Assembly: GCF_001677475.2 (NCBI RefSeq)
Contig: NZ_CP015229.1
DNA from: Escherichia coli
GTDB lineage: Bacteria; Pseudomonadota; Gammaproteobacteria; Enterobacterales; Enterobacteriaceae
Length of the DNA stretch: 64,000 nucleotides
Reading direction: 5' to 3' (one strand)
Both the position numbers and the translations under genes were made by a program. Each line of letters starts with the position of its first letter. The stretch's first letter is position 1. Under the pieces are notes generated by a model that was given only the letters and a program-made list of their open reading frames with translations, made no database searches and was not told the origin of the DNA. This document shows positions 1-51,421 of this stretch, in pieces.

Positions 1-1536
1 TAAGATCTCTTCCATTGAGGAGATCATCGGGATCATGATTTTCAGGCTGCCGTGAGCGGAGGCGCGCAGGATCGAGCGTAGTTGTGTGGTAAATAACGAC
101 GCGTATTCTTCATAAATACGCACCGCGCGATAACCGAGGAACGGGTTAGCTTCTGCCGGAATGTTCAGATAATCAACGGGTTTGTCACCGCCAATGTCCA
201 TAGTGCGCACAATAATGCTGCGTCCGTTGGCGGACTCCAGCGCCTGACAAAAAATGTTGTACAGCTCGCTTTCGCCCGGTGCGCTGGTGCGATCCATATA
301 GAGCATTTCAGTGCGGAACAAACCAACGCCTTCCGCACCATTGCCGAATGCGGCCTGCGCTTCCACGGAGTGAGCGATGTTAGCGGCAATTTCAATGCGG
401 ATACCGTCAGCGGTACGGGCTTGTTGGGTCAGCCAGACACGCTGTTGCTCACGCAGGGCGTCCTGTACGCGGGCTTCCTGCTGATAATAACGAGCTACGG
501 CTTCCCCTGGCTCAACCACAATCGCCCCAGCGTTGCCGTCGATATAAATCGTTTGATGCTGCCACGGAGTGAGGGCATCAATATCCACACCAACCAGCGT
601 CGGAATGTTGAACGAACGGGCAAGGATCACCGTATGTGAGGTGGTGCCGCCGCTTTTGAGCAACAATCCTTTGAGGTGATTTTTATCCAATTCGAGGAAC
701 TGGCTGGGGGTCAGTTCATCAGCCATACAAATGGCGGGCTGCGTCAGTTTGCCCGGTGCCGGGAAGCGTTGCTCACCGTAGATTTGCTGGAGTAACTGGA
801 AGCAGACGTCGCGTACGTCCAGGGCGCGTTCTTGCAGGTAGCTGCTGCTGGAACGGGCGAACTCTTCGCAGAAGTGGTGTGCACTGGCGACAATCGCTTC
901 GGCACAGCTTAATCCCTCGCTGACGCCTGCCAGTAAGTGCTGACGTAAAGAAGTATCGCCAGCCAGGGATCGGTGAGCTTCCAGTATCGCGCTGGTAGCA
1001 CCGTCGCTATCCAGCAGACGAAATTCAATGTTTTTCATCACCAGTGTCAGGCCGTTTTCCAGCGCGGATTGCTCGGCGTCAACGTCTTTGGCTGCGGGAA
1101 GATTACCCAGCGCATTGAGATCTAAAGAAGAGATCGGCGTCAGAATGCCGCCTGCGCTACCGCTGCACACGGTGCGGGCGCGGATAATTTGCGGATTCAG
1201 ATTGGTCAGTGAAACCGGCAGTGGTTCCAGTTCGTCAGATTTTACTTCCGCCAGCGGTGCGTCGCAGTGGGGGAATTCATCGCGCAGCCATTGGCTTAAA
1301 CGCTGGTGCGCTTCCTGTTCGTCGGCCCCGGAAATCAGTAACTGGCAGTTATCGCCCACCAGCGTATCGGTGCCAATCAGCGCAAGGGCGCTTTTGGCGT
1401 TGCCCTTGCGGTCAGTGCGCAGGTTATGCCACTCAATTTGTGATGAAAAAGTATTACACAGCGTTTCAACGTGGCTTGCCGGACGCGCATGTACGCCGTT
1501 AGGTAGCTCACAAATAAATTCCACAATCAGGGCCAT
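1..1536 (-). CDS. ptsA: PTS multiphosphoryl transfer protein (HPr-like plus enzyme I-like domains), N-terminal ~512 codons; 3' end runs off the window start
   Basis: Reverse complement of 1501-1536 reads ATGGCCCTGATTGTGGAATTT (MALIVEF..), in frame down to base 1 where it reads ..SAHGSLKIMIPMISSMEEIL. Absent from ORF track because no stop lies inside the window. Divergent from frwC. Confidence 0.85.
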   Translation of the reverse strand, partial: MALIVEFICELPNGVHARPASHVETLCNTFSSQIEWHNLRTDRKGNAKSALALIGTDTLVGDNCQLLISGADEQEAHQRLSQWLRDEFPHCDAPLAEVKSDELEPLPVSLTNLNPQIIRARTVCSGSAGGILTPISSLDLNALGNLPAAKDVDAEQSALENGLTLVMKNIEFRLLDSDGATSAILEAHRSLAGDTSLRQHLLAGVSEGLSCAEAIVASAHHFCEEFARSSSSYLQERALDVRDVCFQLLQQIYGEQRFPAPGKLTQPAICMADELTPSQFLELDKNHLKGLLLKSGGTTSHTVILARSFNIPTLVGVDIDALTPWQHQTIYIDGNAGAIVVEPGEAVARYYQQEARVQDALREQQRVWLTQQARTADGIRIEIAANIAHSVEAQAAFGNGAEGVGLFRTEMLYMDRTSAPGESELYNIFCQALESANGRSIIVRTMDIGGDKPVDYLNIPAEANPFLGYRAVRIYEEYASLFTTQLRSILRASAHGSLKIMIPMISSMEEIL

Positions 1537-1844
1537 TGCCTCTCTCCCGGTACGGTTTTCTGTTTACAGGATAAGAGCGCATGGCAACGACCTGCCATGT
1601 GACAAATCTGCCAAAAGCTGGACAAATGTAATGTAACCGCCAATTTGCGACGCGTCTCACAAGACGCCGTTTTGCGGCATGCTTCCGGATTATCGCAAGT
1701 TATGAGGCGGATCGCATTTTTGTACTGATATTACAAAAGTCCAGTAAATGGCCTTTTTATCCACTGTTTGCTCCGCCTGCGATTGCCTATTGTTTCCTCC
1801 ATCAAAAATATGGACATGGGCTTTCGCAAGCCCGGGAGCAGCTT

Positions 1845-2924
1845 ATGAATGAGTTGGTGCAGATCCTGAAAAATACCCGTCAGCATTTAATGACGGGCGT
1901 TTCACACATGATTCCCTTCGTGGTATCGGGCGGTATTTTGCTGGCGGTTTCCGTCATGTTGTATGGCAAAGGCGCAGTGCCGGATGCCGTAGCCGATCCG
2001 AATCTGAAAAAACTGTTTGATATCGGCGTTGCGGGTTTGACGCTGATGGTGCCTTTCCTCGCCGCTTACATTGGTTACTCCATTGCAGAGCGTTCTGCGC
2101 TGGCTCCGTGCGCTATCGGTGCCTGGGTCGGCAACAGCTTTGGTGCGGGTTTCTTTGGTGCGCTGATCGCCGGGATTATCGGCGGCATCGTGGTGCATTA
2201 TCTGAAGAAAATTCCGGTGCATAAAGTTCTGCGCTCGGTGATGCCCATCTTCATCATTCCTATCGTCGGCACACTGATTACCGCAGGCATCATGATGTGG
2301 GGCTTGGGCGAGCCTGTAGGGGCGTTGACCAACAGCCTGACTCAGTGGCTACAGGGGATGCAGCAGGGCAGCATTGTTATGCTGGCGGTGATCATGGGGC
2401 TGATGCTGGCGTTCGATATGGGCGGTCCGGTTAACAAAGTGGCCTATGCCTTCATGCTGATTTGCGTTGCTCAGGGTGTTTATACCGTGGTGGCTATTGC
2501 CGCTGTTGGGATTTGTGTTCCACCGCTGGGCATGGGGCTGGCGACGCTGATTGGTCGTAGAAATTTCTCCGCAGAAGAGCGCGAAACCGGTAAAGCAGCG
2601 CTAGTGATGGGGTGCGTTGGGGTTACTGAAGGGGCGATTCCTTTCGCCGCTGCCGATCCGCTGCGTGTTATTCCTTCCATCATGGTCGGTTCAGTTTGTG
2701 GTGCAGTAACTGCGGCGCTGGTCGGTGCGCAGTGCTATGCAGGCTGGGGTGGTCTGATTGTGCTGCCGGTGGTTGAAGGTAAGTTGGGTTATATCGCGGC
2801 AGTGGCTGTCGGGGCGGTTGTGACGGCAGTCTGCGTGAACGTGCTGAAAAGTCTGGCGCGTAAAAATGGGTCTTCGACTGATGAAAAAGAAGACGACCTG
2901 GATTTGGATTTTGAAATTAATTAA
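1845..2924 (+). CDS. frwC: PTS fructose-like permease IIC component
   Basis: 359-aa ORF, polytopic membrane protein, ATG at 1845, position in frw operon. Confidence 0.92.
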   Translation: MNELVQILKNTRQHLMTGVSHMIPFVVSGGILLAVSVMLYGKGAVPDAVADPNLKKLFDIGVAGLTLMVPFLAAYIGYSIAERSALAPCAIGAWVGNSFGAGFFGALIAGIIGGIVVHYLKKIPVHKVLRSVMPIFIIPIVGTLITAGIMMWGLGEPVGALTNSLTQWLQGMQQGSIVMLAVIMGLMLAFDMGGPVNKVAYAFMLICVAQGVYTVVAIAAVGICVPPLGMGLATLIGRRNFSAEERETGKAALVMGCVGVTEGAIPFAAADPLRVIPSIMVGSVCGAVTAALVGAQCYAGWGGLIVLPVVEGKLGYIAAVAVGAVVTAVCVNVLKSLARKNGSSTDEKEDDLDLDFEIN

Positions 2925-2938
2925 TTGAGGAACGAGCC

Positions 2939-3259
2939 ATGACGAAAATTATTGCAGTAACCGCGTGTCCATCTGGTGTTGCCCATACCTATATGGCGGC
3001 AGAGGCGCTGGAAAGTGCCGCGAAAGCGAAAGGCTGGGAAGTGAAAGTAGAAACCCAGGGCTCGATTGGTCTGGAAAATGAACTGACTGCGGAAGACGTG
3101 GCGAGCGCCGATATGGTGATTCTGACCAAAGATATCGGCATCAAGTTTGAAGAGCGTTTTGCTGGCAAGACCATCGTGCGCGTCAACATCAGCGACGCGG
3201 TAAAACGCGCTGATGCCATTATGAGCAAAATTGAAGCTCACCTGGCACAAACCGCTTAA
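2939..3259 (+). CDS. frwB: PTS fructose-like IIB component
   Basis: 106-aa ORF with N-terminal Cys phosphorylation-site motif (VTACPSGVAHTYMAAE). Confidence 0.92.
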   Translation: MTKIIAVTACPSGVAHTYMAAEALESAAKAKGWEVKVETQGSIGLENELTAEDVASADMVILTKDIGIKFEERFAGKTIVRVNISDAVKRADAIMSKIEAHLAQTA

Positions 3260-3309
3260 GTTCTTATCCCGCCCGTAAGGGCGGGTTCGCTTTCCCACAG
3301 GAGTTCCTC

Positions 3310-5607
3310 ATGACGAATCGTATCTCTCGCCTCAAAACTGCACTGTTTGCCAATACCCGTGAAATCTCGCTGGAGCGGGCGCTGCTTTATACCGCCAGCC
3401 ATAAGCAAACCGAAGGCGAACCGGTGATTATTCGTCGGGCAAAAGCCACGGCGTATATCCTTGAACATGTTGAAATTTCGATTCGTGATGAAGAACTGAT
3501 TGCTGGTAACCGCACCGTAAAACCTCGCGCCGGGATTATGTCGCCGGAAATGGATCCTTACTGGTTGCTGAAAGAGCTGGAGCAATTCCCGACGCGACCG
3601 CAGGATCGCTTTGCTATCAGTGAAGAAGATAAACGTATCTACCGCGAAGAGTTGTTCCCGTACTGGGAAAAACGTTCGATGAAAGATTTCATCAACGGGC
3701 AGATGACGGATGAAGTAAAAGCCGCAACCAGCACGCAGATTTTCAGCATCAACCAGACGGATAAAGGCCAGGGGCACATTATTATTGATTACCCACGCCT
3801 GTTGAATCACGGGCTGGGGGAGCTGGTGGCACAGATGCAGCAACATTGTCAGCAACAGCCGGAGAATCACTTTTATCAGGCCGCGCTGTTACTGCTGGAA
3901 GCTTCACAAAAACACATTTTGCGTTACGCCGAACTGGCAGAAACGATGGCGGCAAACTGCACCGATGCCCAGCGTCGCGACGAATTGCTGACTATTGCGG
4001 AGATCTCCCGCCATAACGCGCAACATAAGCCGCAGACGTTCTGGCAGGCGTGCCAGTTATTCTGGTACATGAACATCATTCTGCAATACGAATCCAACGC
4101 CAGTTCGCTGTCGTTAGGGCGCTTCGACCAGTATATGTTGCCGTTCTATCAGACATCATTAACCCAGGGCGAAGACCCGGCGTTCCTGAAAGAACTGCTC
4201 GAATCTTTATGGGTGAAGTGCAACGACATCGTGCTGTTACGCTCCACCAGCAGCGCGCGCTATTTCGCAGGTTTCCCGACCGGCTATACCGCGCTGCTCG
4301 GCGGTTTAACGGAAAACGGACGTAGTGCGGTGAACGTGCTTTCGTTCCTCTGCCTCGACGCCTATCAAAGCGTGCAATTACCGCAACCGAACCTGGGCGT
4401 GCGCACTAACGCCTTGATCGACACGCCGTTCCTGATGAAAACCGCAGAAACCATTCGCCTCGGCACCGGTATTCCGCAAATCTTTAACGATGAAGTGGTG
4501 GTGCCAGCGTTCCTCAACCGTGGCGTTTCGCTGGAAGATGCGCGCGACTATTCAGTAGTGGGCTGTGTGGAATTATCTATTCCCGGCAGAACCTACGGCT
4601 TGCATGACATCGCGATGTTTAACCTGCTGAAAGTGATGGAAATCTGCCTGCATGAAAATGAAGGCAATGCTGCGCTGACTTATGAAGGTTTACTGGAGCA
4701 GATCCGCGCCAAGATCAGCCACTACATCACCCTGATGGTTGAGGGCAGCAATATTTGCGATATCGGTCACCGTGACTGGGCACCTGTACCGCTGCTCTCA
4801 TCGTTTATCAGCGATTGTCTGGAAAAAGGCCGCGATATTACCGATGGCGGTGCGCGTTATAACTTCTCCGGCGTACAGGGGATCGGTATCGCCAACCTGA
4901 GCGATTCTCTCCATGCGTTGAAAGGTATGGTTTTTGAGCAACAGCGTTTAAGTTTTGACGAATTGCTGTCGGTATTAAAAGCCAACTTTGCAACGCCAGA
5001 AGGCGAAAAAGTCCGCGCTCGCTTAATTAACCGCTTTGAGAAATACGGTAACGATATCGACGAGGTGGATAACATTAGCGCCGAACTGTTGCGCCACTAC
5101 TGCAAAGAAGTGGAAAAATACCAGAACCCGCGCGGCGGCTACTTCACGCCGGGATCGTATACCGTTTCTGCTCACGTCCCGTTGGGATCGGTGGTTGGCG
5201 CGACGCCAGACGGTCGTTTTGCCGGGGAACAACTGGCAGACGGCGGCTTGTCACCTATGCTGGGTCAGGACGCACAAGGGCCAACGGCGGTACTGAAGTC
5301 AGTCAGTAAGCTCGATAATACGCTGCTGTCTAACGGTACGTTGCTGAACGTGAAATTCACTCCGGCGACCCTGGAAGGTGAAGCGGGATTACGCAAACTG
5401 GCCGACTTCTTACGGGCGTTTACCCAGCTTAAGTTGCAGCATATTCAGTTTAACGTGGTGAACGCCGACACGTTGCGGGAAGCGCAACAGCGCCCACAAG
5501 ATTATGCCGGGCTGGTGGTGCGCGTTGCCGGATACAGCGCCTTCTTTGTCGAATTGTCGAAGGAGATCCAGGATGACATCATCCGCCGGACAGCGCATCA
5601 GCTGTAA
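3310..5607 (+). CDS. pflD: Glycyl radical enzyme (annotated formate acetyltransferase 2)
   Basis: 765-aa ORF; C-terminal glycyl radical motif RVAGYSAFF; catalytic-loop-like GCVE. Confidence 0.93.
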   Translation: MTNRISRLKTALFANTREISLERALLYTASHKQTEGEPVIIRRAKATAYILEHVEISIRDEELIAGNRTVKPRAGIMSPEMDPYWLLKELEQFPTRPQDRFAISEEDKRIYREELFPYWEKRSMKDFINGQMTDEVKAATSTQIFSINQTDKGQGHIIIDYPRLLNHGLGELVAQMQQHCQQQPENHFYQAALLLLEASQKHILRYAELAETMAANCTDAQRRDELLTIAEISRHNAQHKPQTFWQACQLFWYMNIILQYESNASSLSLGRFDQYMLPFYQTSLTQGEDPAFLKELLESLWVKCNDIVLLRSTSSARYFAGFPTGYTALLGGLTENGRSAVNVLSFLCLDAYQSVQLPQPNLGVRTNALIDTPFLMKTAETIRLGTGIPQIFNDEVVVPAFLNRGVSLEDARDYSVVGCVELSIPGRTYGLHDIAMFNLLKVMEICLHENEGNAALTYEGLLEQIRAKISHYITLMVEGSNICDIGHRDWAPVPLLSSFISDCLEKGRDITDGGARYNFSGVQGIGIANLSDSLHALKGMVFEQQRLSFDELLSVLKANFATPEGEKVRARLINRFEKYGNDIDEVDNISAELLRHYCKEVEKYQNPRGGYFTPGSYTVSAHVPLGSVVGATPDGRFAGEQLADGGLSPMLGQDAQGPTAVLKSVSKLDNTLLSNGTLLNVKFTPATLEGEAGLRKLADFLRAFTQLKLQHIQFNVVNADTLREAQQRPQDYAGLVVRVAGYSAFFVELSKEIQDDIIRRTAHQL

Positions 5608-6451
5608 CGTTGTGGAAACGCGCCGCAATGATGTGGCGCGCATTTTCAACATTCAGCGTTATTCACTGAATGACGGCGAGGGCATTCGTACGGTGGTCTT
5701 TTTTAAAGGCTGTCCGCATCTTTGCCCATGGTGTGCTAATCCGGAGTCGATCTCCGGCAAAATCCAGACGGTACGCAGAGAGGCGAAATGTCTGCACTGT
5801 GCGAAATGTTTGCGTGATGCGGATGAATGCCCGTCCGGGGCGTTTGAACGGATTGGTCGCGATATCAGCCTTGACGCGCTGGAGCGGGAAGTGATGAAAG
5901 ATGACATTTTCTTTCGCACGTCCGGCGGCGGCGTCACGCTTTCTGGCGGCGAAGTGTTAATGCAGGCGGAGTTTGCGACCCGTTTTTTACAGCGACTTCG
6001 GCTGTGGGGGGTGTCATGCGCCATTGAAACTGCCGGAGACGCGCCAACCAGCAAGTTGTTACCGCTGGCGAAATTGTGCGATGAAGTGTTGTTCGATTTA
6101 AAAATTATGGACGTAACTCAGGCGCGGGATGTGGTGAAGATGAACCTGCCACGCGTGCTGGAGAATTTGCGTTTGCTGGTGAGTGAGGGTGTCAACGTGA
6201 TCCCGCGTTTACCGCTGATCCCTGGTTTCACGCTCAGCCGGGAGAATATGCAGCAGGCGCTGGACGTGCTGATCCCGCTGAATATCAGGCAGATCCATCT
6301 GTTACCGTTTCATCAGTACGGCGAACCAAAATACCGCCTGCTGGGGAAAACATGGTCGATGAAAGAGGTTGCTGCGCCGTCGTCAGCCGATGTGGCAACG
6401 ATGCGCGAAATGGCAGAACGGGCCGGATTTCAGGTTACCGTGGGAGGTTAA
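5573..6451 (+). CDS. pflC: Glycyl radical enzyme activating enzyme (radical SAM)
   Basis: ORF-track 5504..6451 trimmed to internal ATG at 5573 (MTSSAGQRISCNVVE..), giving 292 aa; CPHLCPWC radical-SAM triad; overlaps pflD 3' end by 35 bp. Confidence 0.9.
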   Translation: MTSSAGQRISCNVVETRRNDVARIFNIQRYSLNDGEGIRTVVFFKGCPHLCPWCANPESISGKIQTVRREAKCLHCAKCLRDADECPSGAFERIGRDISLDALEREVMKDDIFFRTSGGGVTLSGGEVLMQAEFATRFLQRLRLWGVSCAIETAGDAPTSKLLPLAKLCDEVLFDLKIMDVTQARDVVKMNLPRVLENLRLLVSEGVNVIPRLPLIPGFTLSRENMQQALDVLIPLNIRQIHLLPFHQYGEPKYRLLGKTWSMKEVAAPSSADVATMREMAERAGFQVTVGG

Positions 6452-6452
6452 A

Positions 6453-6794
6453 ATGGCATATCTGGTGGCAGTAACCGCCTGCGTAAGCGGCGTGGCGCAT
6501 ACTTATATGGCGGCGGAACGGCTGGAAAAGTTGTGCCAGTTAGAGAAGTGGGGCGTCAGCATTGAAACTCAGGGCGCGCTGGGAACGGAGAATCGTTTAG
6601 CGGACGAGGATATCCGCCGGGCGGATGTTGCGCTGCTGATTACGGATATCGAGCTTGCCGGTGCCGAGCGATTTGAACATTGCCGCTACGTGCAATGCAG
6701 CATCTACGCTTTCCTGCGTGAGCCGCAGCGGGTGATGAGCGCGGTACGCAAAGTGCTTTCTGCGCCGCAGCAAACCCATCTTATTCTGGAGTAG
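6453..6794 (+). CDS. frwD: PTS fructose-like IIB component 2
   Basis: ORF-track 6369..6794 trimmed to ATG 6453 (MAYLVAVTACVSGVAHTYMAAE..), 113 aa; paralog of frwB. Confidence 0.9.
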   Translation: MAYLVAVTACVSGVAHTYMAAERLEKLCQLEKWGVSIETQGALGTENRLADEDIRRADVALLITDIELAGAERFEHCRYVQCSIYAFLREPQRVMSAVRKVLSAPQQTHLILE

Positions 6795-7632
6795 TCGGTT
6801 TTTCTGTCAGTTGGCTGTGGTACTGCCGACGATATTCCGACGGTGAGCGTTCGGTATTTTTACGAAACAGACGGCAGAAGTAGTTGCTGTCGACAAAGCC
6901 GCAGGCGTGCGCCACTTCTTTTACCTTCAGGTCATAGCCTTTCAATAACGTCTTAGCGTGCTCCAGTCGCGTGTGATTCAGGTATTCGTTAAAACCAATG
7001 GCCCCCGTTTTTTGAAACAGGTGCGAGAGGTAATTTGGCGAAATATAGAATGCCTGTGCGACAGATTCGCGGGTAAGCGCGGAGGCATAGCGTTCGTCGA
7101 TATAATCACGAATAGCTTCGAACAGTGCCTGGCTGCGTGAGGCGGTCTGGATTTGGCTGCCAAGCAAATCGCGGCAGTGGCTAAGCAGGCTGGCGACGAT
7201 AAGCCTTGCCGTTTGCTGCTCTTGCGACTGCATTTGCATTTCATTGAGCGTTTGTAGCAGAAAAGAACCAATGCGCGGGCCGCGTCGGGCGACGTGTTGC
7301 TTCGCCAGATTTTGATATTGTTTGCCATCCCATTGCACGACGCTGAAGCCGAGTTGCTGTTTGCCAAACAGCACGCTAAAGGTAGTGGCGGGGGCTTGCC
7401 ATTGTGGAAAATTCCAGCCACCAGCGGGAACGTACAGCACATCGCCGGGAACTAACGTTGCTCCAGCGCCGGTATCAACAAACTCACCTTCCAGCACAAT
7501 TTCCAGCCGTGGAAAATCGACCTGATACGCGAGATCGGGGACCGGACCGTTGCTGCTGGCAAAGTAAATCTGGCGCAGGGACAGCGGGCCGTTGATCAGG
7601 CGGGAGAGCAGATAGCTGACGTCGTGATACAT
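6781..7632 (-). CDS. yijO: AraC-family transcriptional regulator
   Basis: 283-aa ORF with C-terminal AraC-type HTH region; convergent with frwD, 14-bp overlap. Confidence 0.9.
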   Translation of the reverse strand: MYHDVSYLLSRLINGPLSLRQIYFASSNGPVPDLAYQVDFPRLEIVLEGEFVDTGAGATLVPGDVLYVPAGGWNFPQWQAPATTFSVLFGKQQLGFSVVQWDGKQYQNLAKQHVARRGPRIGSFLLQTLNEMQMQSQEQQTARLIVASLLSHCRDLLGSQIQTASRSQALFEAIRDYIDERYASALTRESVAQAFYISPNYLSHLFQKTGAIGFNEYLNHTRLEHAKTLLKGYDLKVKEVAHACGFVDSNYFCRLFRKNTERSPSEYRRQYHSQLTEKPTTPE

Positions 7633-7675
7633 GTTATTCCCTTAGGTATGTAGACGGGAAAACAGTAACTGGCAT

Positions 7676-7707
7676 TATTAAAAAAGGCCACCTGAAAAGT
7701 GTGGCCT
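7676..7707 (-). terminator. Intrinsic terminator downstream of eptC
   Basis: On minus strand, hairpin aggccacacttttcaggtggcct followed by a T-run. Confidence 0.6.
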
Positions 7708-7780
7708 GAGGGGAGTTCGATGTAAACATTGCGACAGTATCGCATCCGGCAAATAGCGCCAGACGCGATACAAAGGTCAT

Positions 7781-9514
7781 TTACTGATTACCTACCTGGT
7801 CGCCATACGGCAGCGTGTCGTAATCGATCAGCGCGTTTTTCTTGTACGGGTTACCAATCCAGCGGGTAGTTTCTTTGAACTGCGGATTCACCACTGAACG
7901 GGTTGGGTCGTAACCGTCGTAAGATAAGCCCGCCAAATCTGACCAGGTGTGGATCAGTTCCGCCAGGCTGTATTTACGATCAACATCCTGTGAGAAATCA
8001 CGCGGATGAGTCGCTTGCCATTTTTCCGACGTCCACAGCAGGAACGGAATGGTGTACATATGACGCGTCGGGTTGTCCTCATTACGCCCCTGAGTTTTGT
8101 GCGGCGGCGTGTCGTAAACCTCTTCACCGTGGTCAGAGAAGTAAACCAGGAAACCGTTCGGGTCTGCTGCTTTAAAGTCTTTAATCAGGCTGGCAACCAC
8201 ATGATCGTTATACAAGTTAGCGTTGTCATAATCGTTATATGACTCCAGTTCTTCTGCGCTTAATCCCGGCGGAACATGATCGGTATTGCCATCAAACTTG
8301 CCCTGATTTTCCGGGTAGCGGTATTTGTATTTGATATGCGTACCCAGCAGATGAACGATGATCAGTTTCTTCGGCGCAGGGTCATTCAGCACTTCCTGGA
8401 ACGGCTTCAGCACGTTGGTGTCGTATTCACGCGCACTCTGCGTACGTTGCTGGTTCATGTAGTACTGCTTGTCGGTCTGGCGCGAAAATACCGTCAGCAT
8501 GGTATTGCGGGCGGTCATCGTCTGCTGGTTGGTGATCCAGAAGGTTTTATAACCTGCCTGTTTCATCATGTTCATCAGCGACGGCTGTGTCAGATACAGG
8601 TCCGGGTTCTTTTCATTGGCAAAAGTCAGCGCCTGTTGCAGGATTTCAATGGTGTACGGACGAGACGTCACCACGTTATTAAACACGGTCAGATTCGGAT
8701 CGGTTTTATGCAGCGCATCCAGCTCCGGCGTGGTTTCACGCGGATAACCGTACAGACTCATGCGGCCACGCTGGGTCGACTCGCCAATCACCAGCACTAA
8801 AGTGCGCGGTTCGTTACCCGATTCATCTTTGAAATTCGCCAACGGCGGCAAGGCATTATTTTCATTCAGTAGCTTTGTTAGCGAGTTTAGTTGCTGACGA
8901 TACTGATAATAGCCGGTCAGGAATTGCCACGGTGCGGCAGGCTCCATACGCGATGCCAGGTTATCCAACGTTTTCTCAAACGGCTTGTTTTTGATAAACG
9001 TATTCATGGCGATCGGATGCAGAATCAAGCCATAAAGCAGGGCAAAAGAGACAACATAACGCCACGGCTTTGGAATATAGACCGGGCGCAGGCGTGTCCA
9101 CAGCAGAACTGCCACCGCCGTATAGGCCAGCGCGATAAGCACAATTTTCAGGCTGAAATACTGGCTTAAATACTCGCTGGCTTCGTTGGTGTTGGTTTCG
9201 AACATCACAAACAGAACGCTCTGCGAGAACTCCTGACCGTAGATGACGTAGTAGCACAGCGCCGCCAGAGAGGCCGCCCATAGCACCACGCCGATTACTG
9301 CGGCAATAATTTTAATCCGCTTCGGAAAGAGGAATACCGGGATCAACCACAGCGAACTGAATAACAGCGAGTCGCGAATGCCGTTAGTGCCACTATAACC
9401 ACTGATGTAAATAATGGCCTGTAGCAGAGTAGAGAAAAACCAAAAGTAGAGCAGTGCCCAACCCAGGGCTTTCCAGCTAAAAAGAGGTTTAGCCTGGACT
9501 TCTGTGGAATGCAT
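7781..9514 (-). CDS. eptC: Phosphoethanolamine transferase (LPS core modification)
   Basis: ORF-track 7781..9559 trimmed to Met at 9514 (MHSTEVQAKPLFSWKAL..), 577 aa; N-terminal TM helices plus sulfatase-like domain. Confidence 0.9.
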   Translation of the reverse strand: MHSTEVQAKPLFSWKALGWALLYFWFFSTLLQAIIYISGYSGTNGIRDSLLFSSLWLIPVFLFPKRIKIIAAVIGVVLWAASLAALCYYVIYGQEFSQSVLFVMFETNTNEASEYLSQYFSLKIVLIALAYTAVAVLLWTRLRPVYIPKPWRYVVSFALLYGLILHPIAMNTFIKNKPFEKTLDNLASRMEPAAPWQFLTGYYQYRQQLNSLTKLLNENNALPPLANFKDESGNEPRTLVLVIGESTQRGRMSLYGYPRETTPELDALHKTDPNLTVFNNVVTSRPYTIEILQQALTFANEKNPDLYLTQPSLMNMMKQAGYKTFWITNQQTMTARNTMLTVFSRQTDKQYYMNQQRTQSAREYDTNVLKPFQEVLNDPAPKKLIIVHLLGTHIKYKYRYPENQGKFDGNTDHVPPGLSAEELESYNDYDNANLYNDHVVASLIKDFKAADPNGFLVYFSDHGEEVYDTPPHKTQGRNEDNPTRHMYTIPFLLWTSEKWQATHPRDFSQDVDRKYSLAELIHTWSDLAGLSYDGYDPTRSVVNPQFKETTRWIGNPYKKNALIDYDTLPYGDQVGNQ

Positions 9515-12348: not shown

Positions 12349-12675
12349 ATTACCCCAGACACCCCATCTTATCGTTTGATAGCCCTGTATCCTTCACGTC
12401 GCATTGGCGCGAATATGCTCGGGCTTTGCTTTTCGTCGTCTTTTATAAAGCCACGTAAAAGCGGTGACGTCAAATGCTGCGAAATCGCTTCAGCAAACGA
12501 ATAAATAGCAGGAATTTACGTCATTAAATTCACGACGCTTTAAATAAGCGTAACTTATGGGAATGTTAAAAAATCGCCTCAAGTAACACCAAAGAGTTAT
12601 GAGTTGTAGTTACCATTTGGGCAATCATCTGAGATTGCTGACAAACTCGTTTACGGGTCAGTATGGGCACGGTTT

Positions 12676-12720
12676 TCCCCTCACCCTAACCCTCTCCCCG
12701 AAGGGGCGAGGGGACTGTCC
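12676..12720. repeat. GC-rich palindromic (REP-like) element in the ppc-argE intergenic region
   Basis: Imperfect inverted repeat cccctcaccctaaccctctcccc / ggggcgagggg around a gaag loop. Confidence 0.4.
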
Positions 12721-12760
12721 GTGCGCTTGCATGGCTTTGTCATCAGCCTGATTTGCTTTT

Positions 12761-19855: not shown

Positions 19856-20184
19856 GGTAGGGCTTACCTGTTCTTATACATAAAAGCAACAGAATGGTAA
19901 CATTTTATCGCGGGTAAGCCAATTGATCCCCGTCATTAATCTGGCTATAGCGTGAGCGGCCTTTGCTTTGTCTGCCCCCTTCTTAACCCATTTATTTACT
20001 ATTAATCGCTTTTTCTTATGGCTGATAGTTTTATCTTGCCGAAGCGTGCTTTTTTGTTATTGTCTTTATGAAATATTCTTATAAAACAAACATATAAATA
20101 TTTTATATTGATGAGTTATTTGTATTTATACCATCAATAAAATCCGTTAATTAGCCTGTTTATAAGTGAATAAAGGAATAGCCG

Positions 20185-21351
20185 ATGATCGAACACTATA
20201 TTCGAGGGTTTGAGGAAGAACTGCGTGAGATCCGCCATCAGATCCACGAAAACCCGGAGCTGGGATTACAAGAATTTAAAACCAGTGCTTTGGTGGCGGA
20301 AAAGCTGCGTCAGTGGGGCTATGAAGTAGAGCAAGGACTGGCGACGACGGGGATAGTGGCCACGTTAAAAGTGGGCGACGGAGAGAAAAGTATTGGCCTG
20401 CGGGCGGATATGGATGCGCTGCCAATTTATGAAAATAGTGGCAAGCCCTGGGCCAGTAAACATCCTGGTTTAATGCACGCCTGCGGGCATGACGGGCATA
20501 CCACCATACTGCTGGGGGCCGCGCGTTATTTTGCCGAAACCCGCCGTTTTAACGGCACGTTACGTCTTATCTTCCAGCCTGCGGAAGAGATGATTAACGG
20601 CGGTGAGATCATGGTTAAAGAGGGGCTTTTTGATCATTTCCCCTGCGATGTCATTTTCGGCATGCATAACATGCCCGGTCTGCCGGTGGGTAAGTTTTAT
20701 TTCCAGCCAGGGGAACTGATGGCGTCAATGGATCAGTTCCATATTACAGTTCGTGGTTGTGGCGGACACGGTGCGATCCCGCACAAAGCCATCGATCCGG
20801 TGCTGGTTGCCGCACATATCACCACCGCATTACAAAGCATTGTGTCGCGCAATGTCGATCCGCTGGAAGCGGCGGTAATTACCGTCGGCAGCATTGTTGC
20901 GGGTGAGGCGGCTAACGTCATTCCTGACAGTGCTGAGATGAAAATCAGCGTCCGCTCTCTTAGCCGCGATACCCGACAACTTCTTCTGACCCGTATTCCT
21001 GCTCTGGCACAAACCCAGGCTGCCAGCTTTGGTGCTACGGCTGAGGTTACGCATGTTAACGGTACACCGGTATTAGTGAATGACGAGGAGATGGCGCGCT
21101 TCGCCTGGCAGGTGGCGTGTAAAACGTTTGGTGAAGATCGGGCCGAGTTTGGCATCAAGCCCCTGATGGGCAGTGAGGATTTCTCTTTCATGCTGGAAGC
21201 CCAGCCGAAAGGCGCTTTTTTGCTGTTCGGTAATGGCGATGTCGGGGAAGGTTCCTGCATGGTGCATAACCCGGGTTACGACTTCAACGATGCAAGTCTG
21301 GTCCCGGCATGCAGCTACTGGGGCGCACTGGTAGAAGCTTGGCTGCAATAA
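20185..21351 (+). CDS. M20D-family metal-dependent amidohydrolase (hippurate hydrolase / N-acyl-amino-acid deacylase-like)
   Basis: 388-aa ORF; HACGHDGH metal-binding signature; GGAGG-like RBS (aaaggaa) upstream; no signal peptide. Confidence 0.8.
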   Translation: MIEHYIRGFEEELREIRHQIHENPELGLQEFKTSALVAEKLRQWGYEVEQGLATTGIVATLKVGDGEKSIGLRADMDALPIYENSGKPWASKHPGLMHACGHDGHTTILLGAARYFAETRRFNGTLRLIFQPAEEMINGGEIMVKEGLFDHFPCDVIFGMHNMPGLPVGKFYFQPGELMASMDQFHITVRGCGGHGAIPHKAIDPVLVAAHITTALQSIVSRNVDPLEAAVITVGSIVAGEAANVIPDSAEMKISVRSLSRDTRQLLLTRIPALAQTQAASFGATAEVTHVNGTPVLVNDEEMARFAWQVACKTFGEDRAEFGIKPLMGSEDFSFMLEAQPKGAFLLFGNGDVGEGSCMVHNPGYDFNDASLVPACSYWGALVEAWLQ

Positions 21352-21393
21352 ATAAAACAACACACAACAACACTTTTTGGCAAGGAACATGGA

Positions 21394-22710
21394 ATGACGG
21401 CGATCGTAAATGAAACCGTGAGTGTGAAGAAAAAGCCCAGCGGTAAGCGGGTGATTTTTGCTTCGGCGTTTGGCAATGCGCTCGAATTTTTTGATTTTGG
21501 CGTTTACAACTTTTTTGTGGTCTATATCAGTACGCTTTTCTTCCCACCCAGCGCTGATCACAATGTCGCGCTGTTACTGGCATTTGCAACATTTGGCGTG
21601 AGTTTTTTTATGCGCCCGCTTGGTGGAATTATCGTCGGGGCCTGGGCCGATCGCTTCGGACGCAAACCCGCGATGGTGTTCACCATTGCCCTGATGAGCC
21701 TCGGTACACTGATGATCGGCATCGCACCGACGTATGAAACGGCGGGCTATTGGGGAACCGCGACGCTGGTGCTGGCGCGTCTAATTCAGGGCGTTGCGGC
21801 AGGAGGCGAAGTCGGTGCCTCAATGTCTTTGTTGGTTGAATCAGCTCCGGCAAATCGTCGCGGCTTTTACAGCAGTTGGTCACTGGCGACTCAAGGCCTG
21901 GCAACAACCTTTGGTGGTGTTGTCGCTTTAGGTTTAAGCGCATGGCTGCCCTTTGCGACAGGTTCAGAAACCGTAATGGCTGAATGGGGCTGGCGTGTGC
22001 CATTTTTTATTGGCGTGTTATTAGCACCTATCGGTTGCTGGTTGCGTCTGAGCCTGGAAAATGACGTACCTGAGCTAGTGCGCAATAAAAAAGCTGCTAC
22101 CAGCGAAAGCGCGTTCTCTCTGCTCCTGCAACATAAGGCGACTATCGTTAACGGCGTTTTACTCGCTATTGGTAGCACGGTCGCAACCTATATCTCCCTC
22201 TTTTATTACGGCACCTGGGCGGCGAAGTATCTGGCGATGCCTCAACATTATTCTCATGCAGCGATGTTACTGGCGGGCGTTATTACGTTTGTGGGTGCGC
22301 TGCTTGTGGGGATGTTGTGCGATTCGGTCGGGCGTAAAAAGCTGATTTTAATCTCCCGTGTGATGGTGCTGATCTGTAGCTGGCCGTCATTCTGGCTGTT
22401 GGTGAATTACCCAAGCCCTGGCATGTTGCTGACGGTGGTTTTCGTGATGGTCAGCTTTACCACGCTTGGCGGTGTGCCGGTAATGTTGCTGATCTCTGAA
22501 CTGTTGCCGAAACGGATTCGGGCATTGGGTTTTGCGCTGGTTTATAGCATTGGTGTGGCAATCTTTGGCGGTTTTGCTCAATATTTCGCTACGCAATCCA
22601 TCGTGTTGCTGGATAGTTTGACAGCTCCGGCGTGGTATTTGGGTGGAGGCACGTTGCTGTCGATGCTGGCGTTGTTGTACGTAAAAGAACCGGCCAAAGA
22701 ATTGCAGTAA
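21394..22710 (+). CDS. Major facilitator superfamily permease, metabolite:H+ symporter (MHS) type
   Basis: 438-aa hydrophobic ORF; [13 protein letters not shown] (GxxxDRxGRK) motif; 42 bp after the amidohydrolase, same strand. Confidence 0.8.
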
Positions 22711-33367: not shown

Positions 33368-33409
33368 TAAAACGAAAGGCTCAGTCGAAAGACTGGGCCT
33401 TTCGTTTTA
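33368..33409 (+). terminator. rrnB T1 terminator
   Basis: aaaacgaaaggctcagtcgaaagactgggcctttcgtttt hairpin plus T-run. Confidence 0.92.
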
Positions 33410-33544
33410 TCTGTTGTTTGTCGGTGAACGCTCTCCTGAGTAGGACAAATCCGCCGGGAGCGGATTTGAACGTTGCGAAGCAACGGCCCGGAGGGTGGCG
33501 GGCAGGACGCCCGCCATAAACTGCCAGGCATCAAATTAAGCAGA

Positions 33545-33575
33545 AGGCCCGGTCGGAAGACTGGGCCTTTTTGCG
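33545..33575 (+). terminator. rrnB T2 terminator (stem sequence differs from the K-12 version)
   Basis: aggcccggtcggaagactgggcct hairpin followed by TTTTT. Confidence 0.8.
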
Positions 33576-42550: not shown

Positions 42551-42606
42551 AGCCTGAGAAATCAGGCTGATGGCTGGTGACTTTTTAGTCACCAGCCTTT
42601 TTGCGC
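42551..42606 (+). terminator. rplL-rpoB intercistronic attenuator
   Basis: Two hairpins (cagcctgagaaatcaggctg; ggctggtgactttttagtcaccagcc) followed by TTTTTGCGC. Confidence 0.75.
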
Positions 42607-51228: not shown

Positions 51229-51421
51229 TGGGAGTTATTCAGAGGGCAAAGTCTTCACGGGAAATATTAAGAAAGGCAGGGCGAAACGAGGAAGAAGCTT
51301 TTCGCCCTGGACAACATTCCTGCTGACGGCACTACCATAAAAAAACACAACGCTTTCAACAACCTTGCGTTTTTCATCTTCCGGAGCTGCTCGGAATAAA
51401 TTTACGTTCTTACATTCCGTC

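What the first reader, a model, noticed from the sequence alone, without database searches (positions are those of the whole stretch)
3260..3309. GC-rich hairpin in the frwB-pflD intercistronic gap
Between the frwB stop (3259) and the pflD start (3310) lies the palindrome cccgcccgtaagggcggg followed by ttcgctttcc. Inside an operon this could act as a partial terminator or an mRNA stabiliser/processing site that sets the stoichiometry of PTS versus glycyl radical components.
Basis: seen in the sequence. Interest (0 to 1): 0.25.

Follow-up and report, generated by a model that had tools for sequence, protein, structure and literature searches.

The report
Conserved hairpin between frwB and pflD
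A short, very stable RNA hairpin sits 8 bases after the frwB stop codon inside an Escherichia sugar-uptake/radical-enzyme operon; it is real and kept by selection, but it is an ordinary operon "punctuation" hairpin, not a new kind of element.

Summary
frwB ends at 3259 and pflD starts at 3310. The gap holds a perfect 7-bp all-G·C stem (3268-3274 / 3279-3285) with a GUAA loop, followed by TTCGCTTTCC.

- **Not chance.** Only two such hairpins occur in the 64 kb window (0.54 expected). Pair probability is ≥0.986.
- **Conserved.** It is single-copy and present in about 5,390 of 5,426 complete E. coli genomes, as three alleles that all keep the stem.
- **Under selection.** Across 22 sequences (about 17 species, at least six genera) every stem pair is kept, with compensatory changes. 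Stem identity is 95.5%, against 52% at four-fold sites and 36% in the loop.
- **Replaced elsewhere.** Other genera carry unrelated hairpins or REP-like palindromes at the same spot, usually 6-10 nt after the stop. About ten have a short gap with no hairpin.
- **Weak as a terminator.** The U-tract scores 3.28, below the window's known terminators (4.4-5.8). A hairpin this close to a stop codon is expected to be repressed by the ribosome.

The most likely function is a leaky, read-through hairpin that mainly blocks 3' exonucleases and so stabilises the frwCB segment. A weak attenuator is the main rival. No 3'-end data exist for this site. It is a new member of a known kind, of low interest.

The parts
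1845..2924 (+). frwC (PTS EIIC), first gene of the presumed frwCB-pflDC-frwD transcription unit
   Evidence: ORF. RefSeq annotation of the collinear E. coli locus L001 and of K-12.
2939..3259 (+). frwB (PTS EIIB-like, 106 aa), with stop codon TAA at 3257-3259
   Evidence: The protein is 100% identical to E. coli FrwB.
3260..3267 (+). 8-nt spacer GTTCTTAT between the stop codon and the hairpin
   Evidence: The stop-to-stem distance has median 8 nt (IQR 6-10) in the 49 species loci that carry a simple hairpin. The spacer sequence itself is not conserved (50% identity).
3268..3274 (+). 5' arm CCCGCCC
   Evidence: Paired in 22 of 22 class-A sequences. Stem identity is 95.5%, against 52% at four-fold degenerate sites.
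3275..3278 (+). Loop GTAA, a GNRA-type tetraloop
   Evidence: The loop is GCAA in K-12 and TTCG, TTAG, ATTC and others in other genera. Loop identity is 36%, i.e. evolving freely.
3279..3285 (+). 3' arm GGGCGGG
   Evidence: Pair probability >=0.986.
3286..3295 (+). T-rich but interrupted tail TTCGCTTTCC (6 T in 10; 5 in the first 8)
   Evidence: Its tail score is 3.28. Known terminators in the same window score 4.4-5.8 (rrnB T1/T2, nusG, rplL-rpoB attenuator, rpoC, oxyS, ppc, tufB).
3299..3303 (+). Shine-Dalgarno AGGAG of pflD, 6 nt before the ATG
   Evidence: The ACAGGAG block is conserved in the class-A alignment, with 76% identity.
3310..5607 (+). pflD (glycyl-radical enzyme, 765 aa)
   Evidence: PMC12441222 reports, citing Ma et al., that PflD cleaves 1,5-anhydromannitol-6-phosphate.
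5573..6451 (+). pflC (activating enzyme), overlapping the end of pflD
   Evidence: Coordinates transferred from the L001 annotation.
6453..6794 (+). frwD (second EIIB-like protein), last gene. It overlaps the convergent yijO (6781-7632, minus strand).

Best explanation
The element is an RNA stem-loop at the 3' end of the frwB cistron, formed in a polycistronic frwCB-pflDC-frwD transcript.

Transcription mostly reads through it, for two reasons. The U-tract is interrupted (UUCGCUUU). The stem also starts only 8 nt after the stop codon, so a ribosome terminating on frwB covers its base while RNA polymerase is at the release site.

Once formed, the very stable G·C hairpin acts as a barrier to 3'-to-5' exonucleases. 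After downstream cleavage or occasional termination, the frwCB segment would therefore outlive the pflDC-frwD segment. The A/U-rich, unstructured 24 nt that follow leave the pflD ribosome-binding site free for independent initiation.

Shown here: the hairpin, its stability, its selection, its position and the weak tail. Inferred: co-transcription of the five genes, read-through, and the stabilising effect.
For: - **Hairpin stability.** A real and dominant fold.
- **Selection on the stem only.** All 7 pairs are kept in 22 of 22 sequences (about 17 species, at least six genera). Three pairs carry compensatory double changes and K-12 has a U·G intermediate. Stem identity is 95.5%, versus 52% at four-fold sites, 36% in the loop and 57% in the tail.
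- **E. coli alleles.** All three alleles keep pairing: 3,131, 1,064 and about 1,150 genomes.
- **Structure conserved, sequence not.** Klebsiella and Raoultella carry a different G·C hairpin, itself with a compensatory G-C to A-U change, followed by an A-rich tail that cannot be a U-tract. Citrobacter, Phytobacter and Kosakonia carry REP-like palindromes, whose class is reported to stabilise upstream mRNA (PMC12306157).
- **Distribution.** Of 67 species loci, 49 have a simple hairpin of -10 kcal/mol or better. In 41 of these it starts within 15 nt of the stop. Only 2 have a tail score of at least 4.2, roughly the lower bound of the window's known terminators.
- **Attached to frwB.** In Pseudocitrobacter pflDC is absent, yet a hairpin still follows frwB ahead of frwD.
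- **Weak tail.** It is the lowest among the top 25 terminator-like sites in the window.
- **Ribosome repression.** A terminator 5 bp after a stop codon fell from about 90% to under 10% efficiency (PMC4824070).
- **No internal promoter.** No plus-strand promoter-like site lies in 1-9000, and the other gaps in the operon are 14 nt or less, or overlaps.
Against: - There is no transcript, 3'-end or half-life data for this operon. The supplements of two E. coli 3'-end studies contain no frwB, frwC or pflD entry. The likely reason is that the operon is silent in standard culture.
- About ten genera (Buttiauxella, Cedecea, Rahnella and others) have a 16-29 nt gap with no hairpin, so the element is dispensable.
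- Within class A the tail stays T-rich (4-6 T in 8 in most), which fits a terminator as well as an unstructured linker.
- In long gaps of Photobacterium and Gilliamella the hairpin lies 28-47 nt from the stop.
- Stable hairpins under 16 nt from a stop codon are reported to lower, not raise, expression of the upstream gene (Liang et al., as cited in PMC12306157).
Confidence: 0.4

Rival explanations
1. Leaky intrinsic terminator (attenuator). The hairpin plus the imperfect U-tract releases a set fraction of RNA polymerases after frwB, so pflDC-frwD is transcribed less than frwCB. Release is stronger when frwB is poorly translated, because the ribosome no longer masks the stem.
For: - The architecture is terminator-like, and it is the top hit of the simple scan in 1-9000.
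- It ranks 14-18 of 49 on a d'Aubenton-Carafa-style score that recovers the known terminators of the window, including the rplL-rpoB attenuator.
- T-richness of the tail is maintained in most class-A genera. It is near canonical in Leclercia (TTTGTATTTTT), in a Pluralibacter MAG (TTGTTTTACC) and in E. cloacae (CTGGTTTTTTT).
- GNRA and UUCG loops, typical of terminators (my own knowledge), occur in about half of the class-A sequences.
Against: - The tail score of 3.28 is below every established terminator in the window (4.4-5.8), with C-G-C at tail positions 3-5.
- Tail sequence identity (57%) is barely above neutral (52%).
- The Klebsiella/Raoultella hairpins have A-rich or no-U tails. Only 2 of 49 hairpins across species reach terminator-grade tails.
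- A stop codon 8 nt upstream should repress termination during coupled translation.
- The majority E. coli allele weakens the stem by 3 kcal/mol.
Confidence: 0.25
2. Stop-codon-proximal roadblock. The hairpin is too close to the frwB stop codon for the ribosome to terminate freely. It slows or stalls termination, lowering FrwB output or triggering cleavage and trans-translation, or it modulates re-initiation at pflD. This is the mechanism reported for REP elements under 16 nt from a stop codon.
For: - The stem starts 8 nt after the stop. The median is 8 nt (IQR 6-10) in 49 species, and the distance holds even where the hairpin sequence is unrelated.
- REP-like palindromes occupy the same place in Citrobacter.
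Against: - In 50-nt gaps the hairpin has little room to sit anywhere else, so the short distance may only reflect a compact gap.
- Ribosomes normally unwind 7-bp stems (own knowledge).
- There is no experimental evidence for this locus.
- The original paper could not be read here.
Confidence: 0.1
3. No present function. The hairpin is a relic, for example of a terminator from a time when frwCB was a separate unit, or one of the palindromes that tend to settle in intergenic gaps. It is tolerated because it does little.
For: - The gap is evolutionarily plastic. Within Citrobacter alone it holds the class-A hairpin, another hairpin, REP-like palindromes, or nothing.
- About ten genera lack any hairpin.
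- In Kluyvera frwB is the last gene and is followed by a true terminator-like hairpin.
- The operon is little expressed in laboratory conditions (inference).
Against: A neutral relic would not keep 95.5% stem identity and 100% pairing across genera whose four-fold sites are at 52% and whose loop is at 36%. It would not show compensatory double substitutions either.
Confidence: 0.12

Closest known systems
Intra-operon intrinsic attenuators, e.g. the rplL-rpoB attenuator (present in this same window at 42572-42597)
   Same: A G·C-rich stem-loop with a T-rich tail in an intercistronic gap of a multi-gene operon. It is expected to let some transcription through.
   Different: The rplL-rpoB element has an uninterrupted TTTTT tail (score 4.65 versus 3.28) and lies about 40 nt after the stop codon in a 319-nt gap. 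The frwB hairpin lies 8 nt after the stop with a C-G-C-interrupted tail, so much weaker termination is expected.
Intercistronic mRNA-stabilising hairpins and REP stabilisers (malE-malF REP; Newbury et al. 1987, as cited in PMC12306157)
   Same: A stable stem-loop just 3' of the upstream cistron. REP-like palindromes occupy the homologous gap in Citrobacter, Phytobacter and Kosakonia.
   Different: It is single-copy per genome, 18 nt long and has no REP consensus, so it is not a REP. Stabilisation is not shown for this site.
Stop-codon-proximal REPs that stall ribosomes (Liang, Rudd and Deutscher 2015, as summarised in PMC12306157)
   Same: [quoted passage not shown]
   Different: It is not a REP, its stem is shorter, and the effect on FrwB is untested.
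Ribosome-repressed terminators close to stop codons (Li et al., PMC4824070)
   Same: The hairpin lies a few nt after the stop. The model system showed near-complete repression of termination at 5 bp.
   Different: That study used the strong lambda tR2 terminator in a synthetic reporter. Here the terminator is intrinsically weak and native.

Membership tests
Intrinsic (Rho-independent) terminator | G·C-rich stem of about 5-14 bp with a 3-8 nt loop | tested here: met
   7 G·C pairs and a 4-nt loop, -15.7 kcal/mol.
Intrinsic (Rho-independent) terminator | U-tract immediately 3' of the stem, comparable to proven terminators | tested here: inconclusive
   TTCGCTTTCC has 5 T in the first 8, which passes the loose scan. 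Its tail score of 3.28 is the lowest of the top 25 candidates and below all known terminators in the window (4.4-5.8). The score formula was written from memory and used only for ranking within the window.
Intrinsic (Rho-independent) terminator | RNA 3' ends or polymerase release at the site | not testable with these tools
   No frwB, frwC or pflD entry in the held supplements of Adams et al. 2021 or the TERMITe paper. The supplements of three other studies (PMC6061677, PMC9023263, PMC4161252) are not held.
REP / BIME repeated palindromes | Many copies per genome sharing a consensus | tested here: not met
   Median of one place per E. coli genome and one copy in the window. It has no REP consensus.
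mRNA-stabilising intercistronic hairpin | Stable stem-loop directly 3' of the protected cistron, maintained by selection | tested here: met
mRNA-stabilising intercistronic hairpin | Longer half-life of the upstream segment that depends on the stem | not testable with these tools
   This needs RNA decay measurements.
Stop-proximal ribosome-stalling hairpin | [quoted passage not shown] | tested here: met
   8 nt in the window. The median is 8 nt across species. The criterion is taken from PMC12306157.
Stop-proximal ribosome-stalling hairpin | Ribosome stalling, mRNA cleavage or tmRNA tagging | not testable with these tools
   There are no data.
Any curated Rfam family | Match at or above the gathering score | tested here: not met
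   The best hit overlapping the hairpin is porB RNA on the minus strand, at 18.2 bits against a 35.1-bit cut-off and E = 4.7.

The most novel reading that the evidence does not exclude
The frwB-pflD junction may be under long-term selection for a structure rather than a sequence. Unrelated G·C hairpins, REP-like palindromes and other stem-loops have repeatedly replaced one another 6-10 nt after the frwB stop in Enterobacterales, Vibrionaceae and Orbaceae. This would maintain a translation-gated checkpoint: read-through to the oxygen-sensitive glycyl-radical enzyme genes only while the transporter cistron is being translated, and a stabilised frwCB stub otherwise. If so, this is a clean natural example of structural turnover of an intercistronic regulator.
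Probability: 0.2. Interest if true: 0.4.

Novelty: new member of a known kind. Interest (0 to 1): 0.2.

Why it matters
If the hairpin really tunes frwCB against pflDC-frwD, it would be one control point in the recently assigned anaerobic 1,5-anhydromannitol pathway of gut Enterobacteriaceae (PMC12441222). It would also give a simple native case of a stop-proximal hairpin whose effect depends on translation.

The main practical value is for annotation. The site should be recorded as a conserved intercistronic stem-loop with a weak U-tract, not as an operon boundary. Nothing here changes general understanding of terminators or mRNA stabilisers.

Tried and rejected
- **Rfam, permissive threshold, 2500-4000.** Only chance-level hits.
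- **Whole-segment folding z-scores.** Not significant (-1.17 and -1.70). Rejected as a test because shuffles keep the G/C runs.
- **Minus-strand function.** The same stem forms, but its tail is ATAAGAAC, both flanking genes are on the plus strand, and it is not a bidirectional terminator.
- **Own promoter for pflD inside frwB.** No plus-strand promoter-like site in 1-9000. This is a weak negative from a consensus scan.
- **Alternative (antiterminator) pairing.** The hairpin keeps a probability of at least 0.986 in 231 nt, and there is no competing G-rich or C-rich partner upstream.
- **Repeated-element hypothesis.** Single copy.
- **Protein-binding palindrome in DNA.** Judged unlikely, because loops vary freely, arms change by compensatory pairs, and other genera use unrelated arms.
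- **Literature.** No paper in the library discusses this gap. 3'-end supplements have no entry or are not held. Liang et al. 2015 could not be fetched, so it is cited only through PMC12306157.
- **Homology between the class-A and Klebsiella-type hairpins.** No convincing alignment of the arms. I treat them as a replacement, or as too diverged to tell.

Full report
**1. The observation**

The sequence is as described. frwB occupies 2939-3259 and pflD occupies 3310-5607. RefSeq annotation of collinear E. coli records gives the same names and the same 50-nt gap. The region is frwC-frwB-pflD-pflC-frwD, with ptsA-fsaB-gldA divergent upstream and yijO convergent downstream.

The gap reads GTTCTTAT | CCCGCCC GTAA GGGCGGG | TTCGCTTTCC CAC AGGAG TTCCTC, then ATG. 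The stem is 3268-3274 paired with 3279-3285, and the loop is 3275-3278.

- The hairpin alone is -15.7 kcal/mol. It is the centroid structure in 71-nt and 231-nt contexts, with pair probabilities of at least 0.986.
- Perfect 7-bp all-G/C hairpins are rare: two in 64 kb, against 0.54 expected from shuffles. The other lies between rrnB T1 and T2.
- Whole-segment z-scores are weak. Shuffles preserve the G/C runs, so I do not use them.
- Nothing in Rfam matches.

**2. Variation within E. coli**

The 50-nt gap is single-copy and present in about 5,390 of 5,426 complete genomes. There are three main alleles:

| Allele | Genomes | Notes |
|---|---|---|
| K-12: CCCGCTC GCAA GGGCGGG | 3,131 | one C-G pair becomes U·G; -12.7 kcal/mol |
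| Window: CCCGCCC GTAA GGGCGGG | 1,064 | -15.7 kcal/mol |
| CCCGCCC GCAA GGGCGGG | most of the remaining ~1,150 | |

All three keep the stem and a GNRA-type loop.

**3. Other genera**

A scan of species-representative genomes with FrwB returned 80 loci. In 67 of them pflD follows frwB.

*Class A.* Twenty-two sequences share CCCGCCC-N4-GGGCGGG. They cover about 17 species in at least six genera (Escherichia, Enterobacter, Leclercia, Lelliottia, Pluralibacter, one Citrobacter) plus unassigned Enterobacteriaceae.
- All seven pairs are formed in all 22 sequences.
- Three pairs carry compensatory double changes: C-G to U-A in Enterobacter ENT03, and two swapped pairs in Enterobacter kpr-6. The K-12 U·G is an intermediate state.
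- No column shuffle or slid register reaches the observed values.
- Identity between sequences is 95.5% in the stem, 36% in the loop, 50% in the spacer, 57% in the tail and 76% in the Shine-Dalgarno block. Four-fold degenerate sites of frwB and pflD in the same genomes are at 52%. The stem arms, and little else, are under purifying selection.

*Other occupants of the gap.*
- Klebsiella and Raoultella carry a different hairpin (CGGGGCGC...GCGCCCCG, or GCGGAGCGC...GCGCTCCGC, related by a compensatory G-C to A-U change). Its tail is A-rich or lacks U.
- Citrobacter, Phytobacter and Kosakonia carry REP-like palindromes. I recognised these by eye from their consensus.
- Vibrio, Photobacterium, Gilliamella and Pseudovibrio have other hairpins.
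- Buttiauxella, Cedecea, Rahnella and a few others have 16-29 nt gaps with no hairpin.

*Counts over the 67 loci.*
- 49 have a simple hairpin of -10 kcal/mol or better. At least four more have larger bulged structures.
- In 41 of the 49 the hairpin starts within 15 nt of the stop (median 8 nt, IQR 6-10).
- Only 2 of the 49 have a tail score of at least 4.2, roughly the lower bound of the known terminators in this window.

In Pseudocitrobacter pflDC is missing, and a hairpin still follows frwB ahead of frwD. In Kluyvera frwB is the last gene and is followed by a hairpin with a TTTGTTTTCT tail.

**4. Is it a terminator?**

I scored every hairpin-plus-tail in the window with a d'Aubenton-Carafa-style function. 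It was written from memory and used only for ranking. I placed the hits on the K-12 map.

The top hits are the expected terminators: rrnB T1 and T2, the nusG terminator, the rplL-rpoB attenuator, and the rpoC, oxyS, ppc, tufB, eptC and coaA/birA terminators. The frwB hairpin ranks 14th to 18th of 49, entirely on stem strength. Its tail score of 3.28 is the lowest of the top 25, and those known terminators score 4.4-5.8.

Li et al. (PMC4824070) moved a stop codon to 5 bp upstream of the tR2 terminator. Efficiency dropped from about 90% to under 10%, and uncoupling translation abolished this repression. With 8 nt between the frwB stop and the stem, the same effect should apply here. Strong termination is therefore unlikely while frwB is being translated.

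**5. Most likely mechanism**

I commit to a read-through hairpin whose main effect is post-transcriptional (confidence 0.4). It would act as a 3'-exonuclease barrier that stabilises the frwCB part of the transcript, with at most weak, translation-sensitive termination. The reasons are:
- the stem is what selection conserves, not the U-tract;
- U-less hairpins and REP-like palindromes substitute for it in other genera;
- the structure stays attached to the frwB stop whatever follows.

The rivals are:
- a genuine leaky attenuator (0.25), favoured by the maintained T-richness in class A;
- a stop-proximal roadblock to the ribosome, as reported for REPs under 16 nt from stop codons (0.1; PMC12306157);
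- a functionless relic (0.12), disfavoured by the conservation statistics.

Co-transcription of the five genes is inferred from the gaps (14 nt or less, or overlaps, apart from this one) and from the absence of promoter-like sites. It is not shown. I found no 3'-end or expression data for the site.

**6. Comparison with known elements, and novelty**

The element works like known intercistronic hairpins: attenuators such as rplL-rpoB, and REP or hairpin stabilisers such as malE-malF. It is not a REP, because it is single-copy and lacks the consensus. It only partly meets the definition of an intrinsic terminator, because the stem is met and the U-tract is inconclusive.

It is a new member of a known kind. 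Interest is low (0.2). The only mildly notable aspect is the repeated replacement of one structure by another at a fixed distance from the frwB stop.

**7. Context**

PflD is reported to cleave 1,5-anhydromannitol-6-phosphate after PTS uptake (PMC12441222, citing Ma et al.). The hairpin therefore separates the transporter cistrons from the oxygen-sensitive enzyme and its activase. The stoichiometry idea is reasonable but untested.

Noticed in passing
window 1-64000: The window corresponds to the K-12 region from 4,140,686 (ptsA) to about 4,204,000. It is only 97-99% identical to K-12, and at most 98.0% identical over the first 25 kb to any of 5,426 complete E. coli genomes. The source is therefore a divergent Escherichia lineage.
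   Followed up: partly
window 19975-22675: About 2.7 kb between sthA and fabR is absent from K-12. It encodes a 388-aa M20-family peptidase/amidohydrolase (20185-21351) and a 438-aa MFS transporter (21394-22710).
   Followed up: partly
window 51232-51260: A 29-nt stretch replaces about 950 bp of K-12 (4,189,625-4,190,573). yjaZ and the sroH sRNA gene downstream of the rpoC terminator are therefore missing.
   Followed up: no
window 12594-12759: The ppc-argE intergenic region is about 185 bp shorter than in K-12. This may reflect a difference in repeated palindromes.
   Followed up: no
window 33497-33515: The only other perfect all-G/C 7-bp hairpin in the window is GGCGGGC AGGAC GCCCGCC, which has no T tail. 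It lies between rrnB T1 (33373-33404) and T2 (33546-33567).
   Followed up: partly
window 33546-33567: The stem at the position of rrnB T2 reads GGCCCGGTCGGAAGACTGGGCC. From memory, this differs from the K-12 T2 stem, although the TTTTTGCGTTTCTAC tail is the same. I did not compare it with the K-12 sequence.
   Followed up: no
L033 3322-3385 and L034 (Pseudocitrobacter): pflD and pflC are absent, and frwB is followed directly by a hairpin and then frwD (81% identical to the window's FrwD). This is a natural deletion of the radical-enzyme module from the operon.
   Followed up: partly
L010 3322-3471 (Buttiauxella sp. A111); L048 and L053 3322-3460 (Raoultella): The frwB-pflD gap holds 139-150 nt insertions that fold into long, near-perfect structures (-62 to -63 kcal/mol). 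These may be small mobile palindromic elements.
   Followed up: no
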